Shown here: piece after piece, positions 14,846 to 54,066 of the stretch
How positions within the stretch are numbered: the first letter of the stretch is position 1
Layout of the letters: each line of letters begins with the position of its first letter
Program-made: the position numbers and the translations under genes
Source: an uncultured Gammaproteobacteria bacterium
Lineage (GTDB): Bacteria; Patescibacteriota; Patescibacteriia; Magasanikbacterales; UBA922
Direction of reading: 5' to 3'
DNA: 64,000 bases
NCBI GenBank assembly: GCA_964597575.1
Contig: CAZQXB010000001.1
Location: 964-64,963, forward strand
The notes under the pieces: generated by a model
The model's database searches: none
What the model was told of the DNA's origin: nothing
What the model saw: only the letters and a program-made list of their open reading frames with translations

Positions 14846-14960
14846 AGTTCCTGGCACTGGCCTACTCTTGCCTTGCGACTACCATTGGCGCTGACAGGCT
14901 TAACTGCCGAGTTCGAGATGGGATCGGGTGTGGCCCTGTCGCTCATAGCACCAGGAACAA
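14846..14960 (-). rRNA. rrf: 5S rRNA
   Basis: The reverse complement contains canonical 5S segments (ccgatcccatctcgaactcggcagttaagc...). Ends are approximate, +/-5 nt. Confidence 0.85.
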
Positions 14961-15007: not shown

Positions 15008-18400
<3,393 letters not shown>

Positions 18401-18736
18401 AAAACACAAAATTGTACTTCCGCCTATTTTATATACTCTATAAAATAGATGTGTTGCTTACATTTGTTGGTTGGTACGTCAATTGTAATGGGCAATACTC
18501 CAGCACAGTCAGTCTGTCAGCATCGAAACAGTCACACGACTTTCCAAAATGTTTTTGGACAATCGTGTATTTATTTCACGAAAAAAACCGCGTCGTCGCG
18601 GCCTATGGGTCGCACGTCTGACGTCTTGGTTTGGTCACTGGTTTTACCCAGTGGTTAGTTGTAACACGGAGAAGCGAATGTTACTGTGCCAAACCCAGAG
18701 GTCTAGAGGCTTTTCAGCCAGACGTGGTCCTTTTGA

Positions 18737-19474: not shown

Positions 19475-19547
19475 TTGCCGCTTTTGTCAATACTTCCTTC
19501 AGTTGAAACTTCCCTCTTTTTCTTCTATACTCACCGTACATTCCTCT

Positions 19548-20027
19548 ATGTTATCTATTCATATTATTGTTGTTGGGAGCCACAAAGAATCGTATTTTAA
19601 AGAAGCTGAAGCAGAATACCTGAAACGACTCACTCCGTATGCAAAAATAAAAATAACACAAATACCCGAACACTCTTTTCGAGCAGATGAACCCCGAGAA
19701 AAAAGCCAAGAAGTTGAGGCCGAAAAAATCATGAAATATCTTTTGGGAGATGCAGGGAATACCTATATTATAGTGCTCGATGAAAAAGGAAAGCTGAAAG
19801 ATTCCGTTGCACTGAGCAAGCACCTTCAAGAAATCGGCCAAAATGGCACGCCGCTTACGATTATTATTGGAGGGCCTCGCGGACTCTCCCCTTCACTTGT
19901 GAAAAAAGCCAACCTGGTGCTCTCCCTATCTCCTCTTACATTTCCTCATCAGCTTGTTCGTGTTATACTCGCGGAACAACTGTACCGAGCGGGAACCATT
20001 GCCGCCGGTAAAACCTACCATTATTAA
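19548..20027 (+). CDS. rlmH: 23S rRNA (pseudouridine1915-N3)-methyltransferase RlmH (SPOUT)
   Basis: IIVVGSHKESYF...GGPRGLS...LSLSPLTFPHQLVRVILAEQLYRA. The start was chosen at MLSIHII. Confidence 0.8.
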   Translation: MLSIHIIVVGSHKESYFKEAEAEYLKRLTPYAKIKITQIPEHSFRADEPREKSQEVEAEKIMKYLLGDAGNTYIIVLDEKGKLKDSVALSKHLQEIGQNGTPLTIIIGGPRGLSPSLVKKANLVLSLSPLTFPHQLVRVILAEQLYRAGTIAAGKTYHY

Positions 20028-24774: not shown

Positions 24775-24987
24775 AATTATAAAACCCCTCAAAAGAAGGG
24801 TTTTATAATTGTGCCGCGAGAGAGACATCTCACTCGTCGCTTCACTCCTCTTGGGAACACCTTCAGGTTTTCCCAACCTTTCCTCGGCAAGTGAAACCTC
24901 ACGGTTTCACCCTTCCCTAGTTCGAGTCTCTCACTCCACCGTAAATCATAAAAAAAGATCCCACAAATGGGATCTTTTTTTATGATG
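24775..24987 (-). repeat. tRNA-3'-linked structured module, copy B (same family as 4614-4835)
   Basis: Read on the minus strand after tRNA-Leu: a 17-bp perfect hairpin (24946-24986); a segment antisense to the T-arm (gagagactcgaact); a core gaggaaaggttgggaaaacctgaaggtgttcccaagaggag; cgagtgagat; a direct repeat tctctctcgcggcaca of the tRNA 3' end; and a terminator (24781-24806). Confidence 0.5.
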
Positions 24988-25069
24988 TGCCGCGAGAGAG
25001 ACTCGAACTCTCACGCCCGAAGGTGCCTGCTCCTAAGGCAGGTGCGTCTACCAATTCCGCCATCGCGGC
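24988..25069 (-). tRNA. tRNA-Leu (anticodon UAG) with a long variable arm
   Basis: The reverse complement reads GCCGCGA-TG-GCGG-AATTGGTAGA-CGC-A-CCTGC-CTTAGGA-GCAGG-var-GAGAG-TTCGAGT-CTCTC-TCGCGGC-A. No CCA is encoded. Confidence 0.85.
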
Positions 25070-29886: not shown

Positions 29887-30465
29887 TTATACTGCCCCAC
29901 CTTTTTGTTCAGGGGCACGGCGATTCTGCGCTTTCCGCTTATCGTAAATAAGAAAATTTCCTTCGTTTTGACTCAAATCAAGAAAATCATCCGCCTCATC
30001 ACGAAGACGGCTTGAGGTCGTTTCTCCAAAAGCGACAACTTCTACCTGCTTTCCAAATCCTTTCTGAAGGTACTCAACCAGTGGCAAATAATCTCCGTCA
30101 CCTGAGACAATCACAATCGCATCGAGGCTTGTGGCCATGCGAATAGCGTCAACGGTCAAACCCACATCCCAGTCGGCTTTTTTATTTCCGCCTTGAAAAA
30201 TCTGGAGATCCTTTTCTCGGGTTTCGATTCCCAAATTATAGAGCGCTTCAAAAAAAGGTTGCTCTTCCTGTGTTTCGGTTCGAACCACGTACGCAATCGC
30301 GCGGACGAGTTTTCGACCGGCCACAGCTTCTTTTACAATATTTCCAAAGTGTACTTTTCGGTTGTGCACATACCGTGCACTGTAGTACAGGTTCTGCACA
30401 TCAATAAACACCCCTACGCGCTGGTCGGGGTGTTTAATCGGGTTGCGTTTAGGCTGTAATGGCAT
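29887..30465 (-). CDS. NYN-domain (LabA-like) protein, predicted RNase-like
   Basis: VGVFIDVQNLYYS...IVSGDGDY motifs. The start is taken at MPLQPKRN. It overlaps the 3' end of rpsO. Confidence 0.6.
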   Translation of the reverse strand: MPLQPKRNPIKHPDQRVGVFIDVQNLYYSARYVHNRKVHFGNIVKEAVAGRKLVRAIAYVVRTETQEEQPFFEALYNLGIETREKDLQIFQGGNKKADWDVGLTVDAIRMATSLDAIVIVSGDGDYLPLVEYLQKGFGKQVEVVAFGETTSSRLRDEADDFLDLSQNEGNFLIYDKRKAQNRRAPEQKGGAV

Positions 30466-30787
30466 GCTCTTCAATTTCTTCAGGAAGATCGATCGCATCT
30501 TCGGTCTTCATGAGAGGCTTAGCCTGCTTCAATTTAAGCTTCGCAATGAGGTCTTCATACGAAGCTGCGTTTTCTTTTTTCAAGAAACGGAGCAAGCGGC
30601 GGCGTTCCCCTACCTTACGCAGAAGCCCGCGGCGTGATGAATGATCTTTATGGTGTGCTTTTAAATGTTCCGAAAGCTCTTCAATCTCTGCGGTCAAAAT
30701 AGCAATCTGGACTTCAGCTGAACCAGTATCGCCGTCGTGCAGGCGGAACTTCTTAATGACGTTTTGTTTCTTTTGCTTGCTTAACAT
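30449..30787 (-). CDS. rpsO: Ribosomal protein S15 with a ~23-aa C-terminal extension
   Basis: DTGSAEVQIAILTAEIEELSEHLKAHHKDHSSRRGLLRKVGERRRLLRFLK matches the S15 core. Confidence 0.8.
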   Translation of the reverse strand: MLSKQKKQNVIKKFRLHDGDTGSAEVQIAILTAEIEELSEHLKAHHKDHSSRRGLLRKVGERRRLLRFLKKENAASYEDLIAKLKLKQAKPLMKTEDAIDLPEEIEEHAITA

Positions 30788-53433: not shown

Positions 53434-53686
53434 TAAATTCCGCGAAATAATCGCACAACCTGAGCAACTCAACTTTGCAATCGGCGACCGAGTTCGTATT
53501 CCTCTTAGCAATGGTACAGAAGATGTGGGAATCATTCGTGAGTTTAAACCCAAGGTTAACGCTGAGGGAATCATGGAAACATTGGTAGTGGTCGAGATTC
53601 AAGGAAAAAATGCTATTTCAAAAATTGAGGTATTCACATTGAAAAAATTACAGGATGCTCAGGTTGACAATGACCCCACCCCCTGA
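53417..53686 (+). CDS. Hypothetical small protein (89 aa)
   Basis: ORF only. Its start overlaps the end of the ligase gene. Confidence 0.25.
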   Translation: MREHFNKFREIIAQPEQLNFAIGDRVRIPLSNGTEDVGIIREFKPKVNAEGIMETLVVVEIQGKNAISKIEVFTLKKLQDAQVDNDPTP

Positions 53687-53703
53687 TAAAGTGGTGCGCA
53701 TAT

Positions 53704-53790
53704 GGAAGAGTGGCTGAGTGGTTGAAGGCACCGCTCTCGAAAAGCGGCAGGCCCGCAAGGGCCTCGTGAGTTCAAATCTCACCTCTTCCG
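53704..53790 (+). tRNA. tRNA-Ser (anticodon CGA) with a long variable arm
   Basis: GGAAGAG-TG-GCTG-AGTGGTTGAA-GGC-A-CCGCT-CTCGAAA-AGCGG-var-GTGAG-TTCAAAT-CTCAC-CTCTTCC-G. No CCA is encoded. Confidence 0.85.
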
Positions 53791-54017
53791 CACAATAATA
53801 AAATGACCCATACGTTCGGGTCATTTTATTATTGTTGTGAGATGAAGAGGCGAGATTTGAACTGGGGAAAGTTTGAAAACCGGTAGGTTTTCACCTCTAT
53901 TGAGGGAAGGTTGGGAAGGGGTGGAAACCTCTTCCCAAAAGGAACGAAGTTCCGATGTTCAAATAGCGAAGCGCTCACCTCTTCCGCAAAAAGAACACCA
54001 ATCAGGTGTTCTTTTGT
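53791..54017 (+). repeat. tRNA-3'-linked structured module, copy C
   Basis: A 17-bp perfect hairpin (53793-53834). A 20-nt antisense match to the tRNA-Ser T-arm/acceptor (gaagaggcgagatttgaact, one mismatch). A core gagggaaggttgggaagg...ccttcccaaaagga. A direct repeat ctcacctcttccgca (53974-53988). A terminator aagaacacc-aatc-aggtgttctttt. Confidence 0.5.
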
Positions 54018-54066
54018 TTAAAAAAGATTGTTGCCGTACACCTCCTCAATTTTAGAAACCGGTATT

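What the first reader, a model, noticed from the sequence alone, without database searches (positions are those of the whole stretch)
53704..54017. Copy C after tRNA-Ser(CGA): the longest antisense match to the host tRNA
This is the third member. Here the antisense segment matches 20 nt of the tRNA-Ser T-arm and acceptor 3' strand with one mismatch. The downstream direct repeat reproduces the T-loop-like gttcaaat plus ctcacctcttccgca, interrupted by a 9-nt insertion. Three different tRNAs (Arg, Leu, Ser) each carry a module with arms tailored to that tRNA. A plain site-specific integrase remnant would be specific to one tRNA. This pattern therefore points to a templated mechanism that copies target sequence during insertion, or to co-evolution of module and tRNA for RNA-RNA pairing. 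The fourth tRNA in the window, Ile-UAU at 3641-3713, has no module.
Basis: seen in the sequence. Interest (0 to 1): 0.8.

Follow-up and report, generated by a model that had tools for sequence, protein, structure and literature searches.

The report
tRNA-tail structured module with tRNA-copied arms
Behind three of the four tRNA genes in this window from a small-genome (Patescibacteria/CPR) bacterium sits a roughly 140-base structured non-coding module, flanked by a reverse-complement copy and a direct copy of that tRNA's last third; it matches no described RNA family or mobile element, and its function is not established.

Summary
At 53844-53863 there is a 20-nt antisense match (one mismatch) to the tRNA-Ser T-loop, T-stem and acceptor 3' strand. 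At 53957-53988 the tRNA 3' end is repeated, split by a 9-nt insert. Neither match occurred in 2000 shuffles.

Copy C belongs to a family: three copies in the window and seven more in other CPR contigs, next to Arg, Leu, Ser, Asp, Phe, Pro and an intron-containing tRNA.

The layout is tRNA, native terminator T1, S', core, S*, terminator T2. S is the tRNA from G53 to the discriminator plus 1-2 nt. S' is its reverse complement. S* is a direct copy with a disabled T-loop (TTC to TGA, or a 9-nt mini-hairpin insert). The core has three covarying hairpins and conserved purine-rich linkers.

There is no Rfam match, no integrase, transposase or reverse transcriptase in the window, and no phage or plasmid match. 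In relatives the orthologous tRNA-Leu site is empty (L015) or holds a decayed copy (L016).

My best reading is a previously undescribed, tRNA-linked structured RNA element. It is probably transcribed on the tRNA strand, and its arms are copied from, and can pair with, its own tRNA. It is gained, lost and moved between tRNAs. Its function, and how the arms are tailored, remain inferred.

The parts
53664..53692 (+). sigma-70-like promoter of tRNA-Ser (TTGACA-17-TAAAGT with a TG extension)
   Evidence: this is a consensus match only
53704..53791 (+). tRNA-Ser(CGA); CCA is not encoded. Segment S (G53 to the discriminator plus CA) is 53770-53792
53792..53835 (+). T1: a perfect 18-bp palindrome with an A-tract and a T-tract, i.e. 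a bidirectional intrinsic terminator-type hairpin. In copy B the equivalent T1 is orthologous to the terminator of relatives that lack the module
   Evidence: I2; for T1 orthology at copy B
53844..53863 (+). S' (5' arm): reverse complement of tRNA positions 52/53 to about 70 (T-loop, T-stem 3' strand and 6 nt of the acceptor 3' strand), with one mismatch at 53851
53864..53873 (+). J0: purine-rich linker GGGGAAAGTT
53874..53893 (+). P1 hairpin (TGAAAACC GGTA GGTTTTCA); it covaries between copies
53894..53910 (+). J12 linker containing the conserved GAGGRAAGG motif
53911..53938 (+). P2 hairpin, 12 bp with a GGAA loop; it has a G.U pair that exists only on the + strand
53941..53953 (+). P3 hairpin GGAAC GAA GTTCC
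53957..53988 (+). S* (3' arm): T-loop copy GTTCAAAT (53957-64), then the 9-nt mini-hairpin insert AGCGAAGCG (53965-73), then an exact copy of the T-stem 3' strand, acceptor 3' strand, discriminator and CA (53974-88)
53989..54019 (+). T2: second terminator-type hairpin (GAACACC aatca GGTGTTC followed by a T-run). It is homologous to the T2 of the L002 module
4664..4794 (+). Copy A after tRNA-Arg(CCG) 4542-4614: S' 4664-4683, core, S* 4772-4794. T1 is 4615-4657 and T2 is 4795-4832
24810..24940 (-). Copy B after tRNA-Leu(UAG) 24987-25069: S' 24940-24920, core, S* 24833-24810. T1 is 24986-24944 and T2 is 24809-24775

Best explanation
Copy C is a member of a previously undescribed family of roughly 135-150-nt structured non-coding modules attached to tRNA genes in Patescibacteria/CPR.

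What is shown:
- Each module lies between the tRNA's own terminator (T1) and a second terminator (T2).
- Each has the form S' - core - S*. S is the neighbouring tRNA from G53 to the discriminator plus 1-2 nt. S' is its reverse complement. S* is a direct copy whose T-loop is disabled, either by TTC to TGA or by a 9-nt mini-hairpin insert.
- S' and S* pair and close a junction of three covarying hairpins: P1 with GNRA-type loops, P2 with an NGAA loop, and P3. Conserved purine-rich linkers join them.
- The family is multicopy, has at least two subfamilies that coexist in one genome, sits on different tRNAs in different genomes, and is absent or decayed at an orthologous site in relatives.

What is inferred:
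- The module is an RNA made on the tRNA's strand, by read-through of T1 or from an unrecognised promoter, and ended by T2.
- Its arms are copied from the adjacent tRNA by replication or recombination processes (template switching or short-patch conversion), not by an integrase crossover.
- The arms are then kept by selection, because they let the RNA adopt two states. In state 1 it is a self-closed hairpin (S' paired with S*). In state 2 S' pairs with the tRNA's T-loop and T-stem 3' strand while S* replaces the tRNA's own 3' strand opposite the 5' acceptor strand.
- I therefore read it as a tRNA-specific, cis-acting (possibly also trans-acting) RNA element that spreads like a small non-autonomous repeat.

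What the two-state pairing achieves is not known. Processing, quality control or titration of the tRNA precursor are possibilities.
For: - Family and anatomy.
- Arms versus chance: 0 of 2000 shuffles for A, B and C.
- Covariation: 92.5% of cells paired, 15 of 25 pairs changed on both sides, 0 of 500 shuffles, and paired cells fall to 68% or less (covariation score to 0.23 or less) when partners are slid.
- Strand-specific RNA features on the tRNA strand: GNRA loops GUGA and GUAA in P1; G.U pairs in P2 of copies C and L003-Pro; a tandem G.A/A.G in the S'/S* helix, created by the conserved TTC to TGA change, that would be pyrimidine mismatches on the other strand.
- T2 follows S* with the same spacing as T1 follows the tRNA in 6 of 7 distinct copies.
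- Thermodynamics: each module folds as a closed junction (z = -5.6 for copy C). For whole tRNA-T1-module transcripts the minimum-energy fold is state 2 in 5 of 6 cases.
- Orthologous tRNA-Leu locus: L015 has T1 but no module, and L016 has T1 plus a truncated, decayed copy.
- Core B is about 93% identical by eye to cores beside Phe and Asp tRNAs in other genomes, but clearly less like copy A of its own genome.
- No Rfam family.
- No recombinase or reverse transcriptase in the window.
Against: - There are no expression data.
- No consistent promoter was found, and T1 looks like a competent terminator, so the module may rarely be transcribed.
- Strand evidence is moderate: 9 G.U against 5 A.C cells, and both strands fold well.
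- The acceptor part of S' is often not complementary, so a full acceptor-like helix is not conserved.
- Patchy occurrence, presence/absence between near-identical strains (L003 versus L004) and decay in L016 fit a dispensable selfish repeat as well as they fit a functional RNA.
- State 2 as the minimum-energy fold partly restates the complementarity.
- Only 10 copies (8 distinct) were available.
- The covariation was counted on an alignment fitted to the model.
Confidence: 0.45

Rival explanations
1. A purely selfish, non-autonomous mobile DNA element (MITE-like or miniature integrative element) that targets the 'tRNA 3' end plus terminator' junction. Its insertion mechanism itself duplicates the target in inverted and direct orientation. 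The hairpins are protein-binding or ssDNA structures, and any RNA is incidental.
For: - It is multicopy with two subfamilies.
- The same subfamily sits on different tRNAs in different genomes.
- Presence/absence differs between close strains, at a synteny break.
- L001/L006 carry the same module as L005 but with tRNA-Asp replaced by a truncated S-like fragment, which looks like a tandem or rearranged arrangement.
- In L003-Pro the direct repeat extends about 60 bp through the terminator, so T1 resembles T2.
- In L002 the T2 terminator recurs 1775 bp downstream, flanking cargo.
- The GCGAAGC-type mini-hairpins are known from memory as very stable ssDNA hairpins.
- tRNA 3' ends in this lineage are used by other elements, for example the serine-recombinase element in L007.
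Against: - No transposase or integrase lies in the window or next to any copy.
- The terminal repeats are not conserved between copies, so a transposase would have no fixed ends to bind.
- S* is internal, lying between the core and an element-type T2, so it is not a simple target-site duplication.
- The single-stranded linkers (GAGGAAAGG, GGGAAGG) and RNA-type motifs (GNRA loops, tandem G.A) are conserved.
- S' is worst matched next to T1, which argues against fold-back copying from the T1 palindrome.
- There are no matches in viral, phage or plasmid collections.
Confidence: 0.3
2. A trans-acting guide or antisense RNA. The released module RNA opens and uses S' to pair with the T-loop and T-stem of its cognate (pre-)tRNA, and S* to pair with the 5' acceptor strand. 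It thereby directs a protein (a modification enzyme, nuclease or chaperone) to that tRNA, or sequesters the tRNA.
For: - Complementarity is tailored at the variable T-loop positions 57-60 and the T-stem in every copy.
- S* stays perfectly identical even where its partner in S' has diverged, as in copies B, L2 and L5.
- The conserved linkers could be a protein platform.
Against: - No candidate partner protein was found.
- Opening both a stable module helix and the tRNA's top half is energetically costly.
- One guide per tRNA is expensive for a 0.9-Mb genome.
- Some tRNAs lack a module: Ile in the window, Ala in L003 and Gln in L002.
Confidence: 0.12
3. Scars of tyrosine- or serine-integrase-mediated integration into tRNA genes. 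The direct repeat would be attL/attR and the core a remnant of attP arms.
For: - The direct repeat runs from the T-loop to just past the tRNA 3' end, which is the classic extent of att identity blocks at tRNA genes (general knowledge, Williams 2002).
- tRNA-end fragments pile up in L001, L005 and L002.
Against: - There is no integrase.
- The same core lies behind seven or more different tRNAs.
- The proximal terminator T1 is the orthologous native one and the distal T2 is element-type, which is the opposite of the integrase prediction.
- The inverted arm S' and the covarying hairpins are unexplained.
- The boundaries are identical in all copies.
Confidence: 0.08
4. Tandem duplication of each tRNA gene followed by decay, so that the core is degenerate tRNA.
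For: Both arms derive from the tRNA sequence. L027 shows that truncated tRNA minigenes do occur in this lineage.
Against: - The cores behind Arg, Leu, Ser, Asp, Phe and Pro tRNAs are homologous to each other and not to their tRNAs.
- The tRNA covariance model does not hit the modules even at E up to 10.
- S' is in inverted orientation.
Confidence: 0.03

Closest known systems
att-site repeats of integrative elements and genomic islands in tRNA genes (T-loop sublocation class; from memory, Williams 2002 NAR)
   Same: Both have a direct repeat of the tRNA segment from the T-loop to just beyond the 3' end. Both associate with synteny breaks and further tRNA-end fragments.
   Different: The module has no integrase and is only about 200 bp. 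One core serves many tRNAs. It carries an extra inverted copy (S'). The native terminator is proximal rather than distal. The core hairpins covary.
MITE-like structured repeats of small genomes (Correia/NEMIS, RUP, Rickettsia palindromic elements; from memory)
   Same: Both are short, multicopy, hairpin-forming and non-coding, with presence/absence polymorphism and some decayed copies.
   Different: The module's terminal inverted repeats differ in every copy and equal the neighbouring tRNA's sequence. Location is strictly after a tRNA terminator. The module carries its own terminator.
tRNA-like processing signals (plant mitochondrial t-elements, mascRNA-type minihelices; from memory)
   Same: In copies A and C the S'/S* helix reproduces the acceptor and T-stem stack with the discriminator. 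In principle it could be cut by RNase P or RNase Z.
   Different: The T-loop is base-paired or mutated. The acceptor part is unpaired in copies B, L2 and L5. The tRNA covariance model gives no hit.
sRNAs derived from tRNA 3' external transcribed spacers (E. coli 3'ETS-leuZ; from memory)
   Same: Both are non-coding RNAs encoded directly downstream of a tRNA, on its strand, within the tRNA transcription unit.
   Different: The 3'ETS sRNAs lie before the terminator. They are not repeated behind many tRNAs and carry no copies of the tRNA.
Primer-binding sites of LTR retroelements
   Same: Both contain a segment antisense to the 3' part of a specific tRNA.
   Different: A primer-binding site pairs with the terminal 18 nt including CCA. 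Here pairing is best at the T-loop and T-stem, decays toward the 3' end, and has no TGG. No reverse transcriptase is present.

Membership tests
Integrase att scar at a tRNA gene | A recombinase gene within or next to the element | tested here: not met
   Pfam scans of 38 window ORFs found no integrase, transposase or reverse transcriptase. Neighbours of the other copies gave none either.
Integrase att scar at a tRNA gene | A direct repeat of the tRNA 3' segment bounding the insert | tested here: met
   S and S* share 14-19 nt of identity.
Integrase att scar at a tRNA gene | The native 3' end and terminator are displaced to the distal side | tested here: not met
   The proximal T1 of copy B aligns with the terminators of L015 and L016. 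The distal T2 motif is shared only by modules A and B.
Integrase att scar at a tRNA gene | Specificity for one tRNA species | tested here: not met
   Modules lie behind Arg, Leu, Ser, Asp, Phe, Pro and an intron-bearing tRNA.
MITE / non-autonomous transposon | Conserved terminal inverted repeats shared by all copies | tested here: not met
   The arms differ per copy and equal the local tRNA. Only ...GAAC and GTGA... are constant.
MITE / non-autonomous transposon | Multicopy with presence/absence polymorphism | tested here: met
   Three copies in 64 kb. L003 versus L004 differ at tRNA-Pro. L015 is empty and L016 decayed.
MITE / non-autonomous transposon | A short target-site duplication directly flanking the element | tested here: not met
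   The repeated segment S* is internal, lying between the core and an element-type T2.
Any Rfam 15 RNA family | A covariance-model score at or above the gathering threshold | tested here: not met
   Searches (gathering threshold; E up to 10) returned only chance-level hits on the module.
tRNA-like element (t-element, minihelix, tmRNA tRNA-like domain) | A 7-bp acceptor helix stacked on a T-stem, with a discriminator | tested here: inconclusive
   Present in copy A (12 bp with one mismatch and one G.U) and copy C (11 bp). Absent in copies B, L2 and L5.
tRNA-like element (t-element, minihelix, tmRNA tRNA-like domain) | An intact, unpaired T-loop | tested here: not met
   The T-loop copy is changed from TTC to TGA, or is paired with S'.
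Retroelement primer-binding site | Complementarity to the terminal ~18 nt of the tRNA including CCA | tested here: not met
   Complementarity is centred on G53 to the T-stem, the acceptor end is diverged, and there is no TGG.
Structured functional RNA (generic) | Compensatory base changes that maintain the helices | tested here: met
   15 of 25 pairs changed on both sides, with 0 of 500 shuffles reaching this. Caveat: the alignment was fitted to the model and holds only 8 sequences.
Structured functional RNA (generic) | Evidence of transcription | not testable with these tools
   No transcriptome data were available. The only evidence is indirect: the T2 terminator and the strand-specific motifs.
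Recombinase guide RNA (IS110 bridge RNA type) | Encoded at the end of an element that carries the recombinase | tested here: not met
   No such gene lies nearby. Both arms also address the same segment, not adjacent half-sites.

The most novel reading that the evidence does not exclude
Each module is a programmable, tRNA-specific RNA. Two internal cassettes, S' and S*, sit within a conserved scaffold and are rewritten to match one tRNA. They let the RNA strand-exchange with the whole top half of that tRNA or its precursor. A compact-genome bacterium would thereby have a per-tRNA RNA-based control, quality-check or guide system, with a copying mechanism that installs the arms.
Probability: 0.25. 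Interest if true: 0.85.

Novelty: new variant of a known kind. Interest (0 to 1): 0.62.

Why it matters
If the module is an RNA that pairs with its own tRNA, it would be a new kind of tRNA-dedicated riboregulator or guide. It would occur in organisms known for extreme genome reduction, where about 200 bp behind many tRNA genes is a notable investment.

If it is instead a selfish repeat, it would show a way for a protein-less element to colonise tRNA gene tails while acquiring target-derived arms. That bears on how tRNA 3' ends become recombination hot spots.

Either way it is an unannotated, recognisable feature. The covariance model R1 built here can be used to annotate it in Patescibacteria genomes.

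Tried and rejected
1. Rfam at gathering and permissive thresholds on three copies and seven loci gave nothing. The long tRNA-end/T1/S' hairpin only produced spurious miRNA-type hits.
2. An exact-pattern scan of genome contigs and metagenome contigs yielded only 3 + 3 contigs.
3. Three viral-contig scans, plus BLAST against phages and plasmids, found no real hit.
4. Searching the protein database with six-frame translations of the core, to catch spurious ORF calls, returned 0 hits.
5. The 913,817-bp source contig could not be retrieved, because exact-protein look-ups were not on record. No whole-genome census was therefore possible.
6. Neighbours of the 797-aa gene in relatives do not keep synteny with tRNA-Ser(CGA).
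7. Fold-back copying from the T1 palindrome as the origin of S' is rejected, because S' is worst matched next to T1.
8. An RNase P-like reading of GAGGAAAG, a T-box-like reading of GGGUGNNACCG, a small peptide ORF and a K-turn were all considered. No model or consistent feature supports any of them.
9. I considered treating L016 as an independent insertion of another subtype, but the copy is too decayed to classify.
10. Literature searches found no description of the module.

Full report
OBSERVATION

ARAGORN and Rfam place tRNA-Ser(CGA) at 53704-53791 on the + strand. Downstream there is a 20-nt segment at 53844-53863, GAAGAGGCGAGATTTGAACT. It is the reverse complement of tRNA positions 53769-53788 with one mismatch. 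CTCACCTCTTCCGCA at 53974-53988 repeats the tRNA's T-stem 3' strand, acceptor 3' strand, discriminator and CA. It is preceded by GTTCAAAT and the 9-nt insert AGCGAAGCG. Neither match was reached in 2000 shuffles of the 300 nt downstream. The same test is equally significant for the Arg and Leu copies and negative for tRNA-Ile.

ANATOMY

All three window copies share one plan and even the same spacing: the antisense arm starts 53-55 nt after the tRNA end. The order is as follows.
- The tRNA.
- T1, a perfect palindrome with A- and T-tracts that starts right after the discriminator plus CA.
- S'.
- The core.
- S*.
- T2, a second terminator-type hairpin that starts right after S*.

Aligning the arms to the tRNA shows that both arms are copies of one segment, S. 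S runs from G53 to the discriminator plus 1-2 nt.
- S' is the reverse complement of S and always ends in ...GAAC. It is perfect or nearly perfect over G53, the T-loop and the T-stem 3' strand. It is variably diverged over the acceptor part: near-complete in copies A and C, largely unmatched in B, L2 and L5.
- S* starts right after a conserved CGA. It is an exact copy of S from about position 57 to the end.
- The T-loop of S* is always disabled. In five of seven distinct copies TTC has become TGA, so GTTCGAGT becomes GTGAGA(T)GT. In copy C and L002 the loop is intact but is followed by a 9-nt GCGAAGC-type mini-hairpin.
- When S' pairs with S*, the TGA change yields a tandem G.A/A.G. That motif exists only on the tRNA strand.

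The core has these parts.
- J0, a linker (GGGRARGG).
- P1, an 8-9-bp hairpin with loops GUGA, GUAA or GGUA.
- J12, a linker carrying GAGGAAAGG.
- P2, an 11-12-bp hairpin with an NGAA loop.
- P3, a 5-bp hairpin, either fully Watson-Crick or with a tandem G.A.

Each module folds as a closed multi-branch junction. For copy C the energy is -62.1 kcal/mol with z = -5.6.

THE FAMILY ELSEWHERE

A strict core pattern found three genome contigs, one labelled Candidatus Nomurabacteria, and three metagenome contigs. In these, modules follow the following tRNAs:
- tRNA-Phe and tRNA-Pro (L003);
- tRNA-Phe (L004);
- tRNA-Asp (L005);
- a tRNA interrupted by a group I intron (L002);
- a truncated tRNA-end-like fragment (L001/L006).

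In every case the arms match the local tRNA. A covariance model built from nine copies (R1) recovers exactly these ten and nothing else in the window or in 27 loci. The window's source is a 913,817-bp NCBI contig of a Patescibacteria/Parcubacteria-type organism. I could not retrieve it.

IS IT A STRUCTURED RNA?

On the model-fitted alignment 92.5% of cells are paired and 15 of 25 pairs change on both sides. None of 500 shuffles reaches these values. Sliding the partners drops paired cells to 68% or less and the covariation score to 0.23 or less. P1 alone has five different, fully compensated sequences.

The evidence for which strand is read is moderate.
- G.U cells outnumber A.C cells 9 to 5, and some of the A.C cells come from misalignment.
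- The GNRA loops and the tandem G.A motifs lie on the tRNA strand.
- Both strands fold well.

The position of T2 immediately after S* mirrors the position of T1 after the tRNA, which suggests a transcription unit on the tRNA strand. No consistent promoter precedes the module. tRNA-Ser itself has a good one at 53664-53692. Expression would therefore need read-through of T1 or an unrecognised promoter.

For full tRNA-T1-module transcripts, the minimum-energy structure in five of six cases has two features. The tRNA's 5' acceptor strand pairs with S*. The tRNA's T-loop and T-stem 3' strand pair with S', with T1 at the tip of the resulting hairpin. This is an alternative to the state of 'cloverleaf plus self-closed module'.

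IS IT MOBILE OR VERTICALLY INHERITED?

Photolyase homologues led to two relatives with the same synteny as copy B: photolyase, tRNA-Leu(UAG), radical SAM gene. Their PNPase is about 80% identical to the window's.
- L015 has the nearly identical tRNA and a terminator that aligns with T1, but no module.
- L016 has T1, a recognisable S' and P1, and then unrelated sequence, so it is a decayed, truncated copy.

T1 is therefore the native terminator, and the module plus T2 lies beyond it.

Other points bear on mobility.
- The T2 motif ATAAAACCC...GGGTTTTAT occurs in the window only at modules A and B.
- T2 of copy C shares its stem with T2 of the L002 module. The tailored S* is therefore internal, bracketed by element-type sequence.
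- Core B is closer to the Phe and Asp modules of other genomes than to copy A of its own genome, by eye from the alignment.
- Two subfamilies coexist both in the window and in L003.
- L003 and L004 are near-identical through Ala, Phe and the Phe module. Only L003 has the Pro module, and synteny breaks there.
- In L003-Pro the direct repeat runs about 60 bp through the terminator.

Taken together, these points indicate gain, loss, decay and movement between tRNAs, with the arms re-tailored each time.

WHAT IT IS NOT

- It matches no Rfam family.
- It is not a degenerate tRNA copy. The cores are mutually homologous and not tRNA-like.
- It is not a classical integrase scar. There is no recombinase, many tRNA species are involved, the terminator polarity is wrong, and S' is unexplained.
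- It is not a classical MITE, because the terminal repeats differ per copy.
- It is not a primer-binding site, because pairing decays toward the tRNA 3' end.
- It is not carried by phages or plasmids in the collections searched.

INTERPRETATION

Shown: a new, conserved, covarying, multicopy module with tRNA-derived inverted and direct arms, variably present among relatives.

Inferred:
- It is an RNA on the tRNA strand.
- Its arms are installed by copying from the adjacent tRNA and kept by selection for pairing, both with each other and alternatively with the tRNA's top half.
- It behaves as a small non-autonomous spreading element.

I cannot tell what the pairing accomplishes. The purely selfish-DNA reading remains a strong rival. 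The 'not a plain integrase remnant' part is supported.

VERDICT

This is a real and apparently undescribed feature of moderate to high interest. Its mechanism is unresolved with the data reachable here.

Noticed in passing
window 15029-18401 (- strand): The 23S rRNA match spans 3373 nt against a 2925-nt model, so it carries about 450 nt of insertions. 5S follows at 14849-14955. No 16S gene and no spacer tRNAs were reported anywhere in the window. This fits the CPR origin.
   Followed up: no
window 3640-3713 (- strand): tRNA-Ile with anticodon UAU, which is unusual for bacteria. It is followed directly by a co-directional gene, has no terminator, and is the only tRNA in the window without a module.
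   Followed up: partly
window 54036-54064 and 53616-53630: Between T2 and the end of the convergent 797-aa gene lies a fragment resembling the P1 5' half and loop (AATTTTAGAAACCGGTA, 82% to 53869-53885). A 15-nt inverted repeat (53616-53630 and 54044-54058) brackets the whole tRNA-Ser and module unit. This could be a remnant of another copy or chance.
   Followed up: no
window 53927-53940: The 3' strand of P2 in copy C (ACCTCTTCCCAAAA) resembles the tRNA-Ser acceptor 3' strand (ACCTCTTCCGCACA). No such resemblance was apparent by eye in the other copy inspected (L003-Pro), so it is probably coincidence.
   Followed up: partly
L002 63-101 and 1838-1876; ORFs 713-1816 and 211-699 (- strand): The T2 terminator of the L002 module recurs 1775 bp downstream (39 nt, 85% identity). 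The second copy is preceded by GGGGAGCA, which resembles the end of S*. The two copies bracket two ORFs with no Pfam or PADLOC hit, which looks like an att-like duplication around a small cargo.
   Followed up: partly
L002 2091-2396 (- strand): A group I intron (Rfam, 94.9 bits) lies inside the tRNA that precedes the module, which is why ARAGORN missed that tRNA. This agrees with the report of group I introns in Patescibacteria tRNA genes (PMC13011429).
   Followed up: partly
L007 2444-2563 and 4116-4235: Perfect 120-nt inverted repeats begin within the last 4 nt of tRNA-Ser(GGA) and flank a large serine recombinase gene (Resolvase, Recombinase and Zn-ribbon domains). In L027 the same tRNA-to-gene interval is only about 120 nt. 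The adjacent roughly 400-nt GC-rich segment has the opposite orientation relative to the 797-aa gene in L008. Together these suggest an inserted or invertible element at a tRNA 3' end.
   Followed up: partly
L027 4952-5020: Directly after tRNA-Ser(GGA) lies a truncated tRNA-Ser-like minigene. It keeps the acceptor 5' strand, the long variable arm, a T-arm (GTGAGTTCAAATCTTAC, close to that of the window's tRNA-Ser(CGA)) and the acceptor 3' strand. It has no D arm or anticodon arm.
   Followed up: no
L001 2860-2915 / L006 9110-9140: These contigs carry the same module as L005, but tRNA-Asp is replaced by GAGTTCGGAAATCGTCCCGTAGGCTCCGCA, preceded by a P3-like hairpin. This looks like the 3' end of a second, truncated module in tandem, or a rearrangement at the module.
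   Followed up: partly
L005 1215-1260: This module lacks an obvious T2. Instead a further tRNA-end-like fragment (GGCCGAGTCCCGCCCGAATA) follows.
   Followed up: no
window 6702-7355 (- strand), 19503-20027 and 29887-30498 (- strand): RNA-related genes in the window include an RluA-type pseudouridine synthase, a SPOUT methyltransferase and a NYN-domain nuclease next to PNPase and S15. None is adjacent to a module. I list them only as conceivable partners.
   Followed up: no
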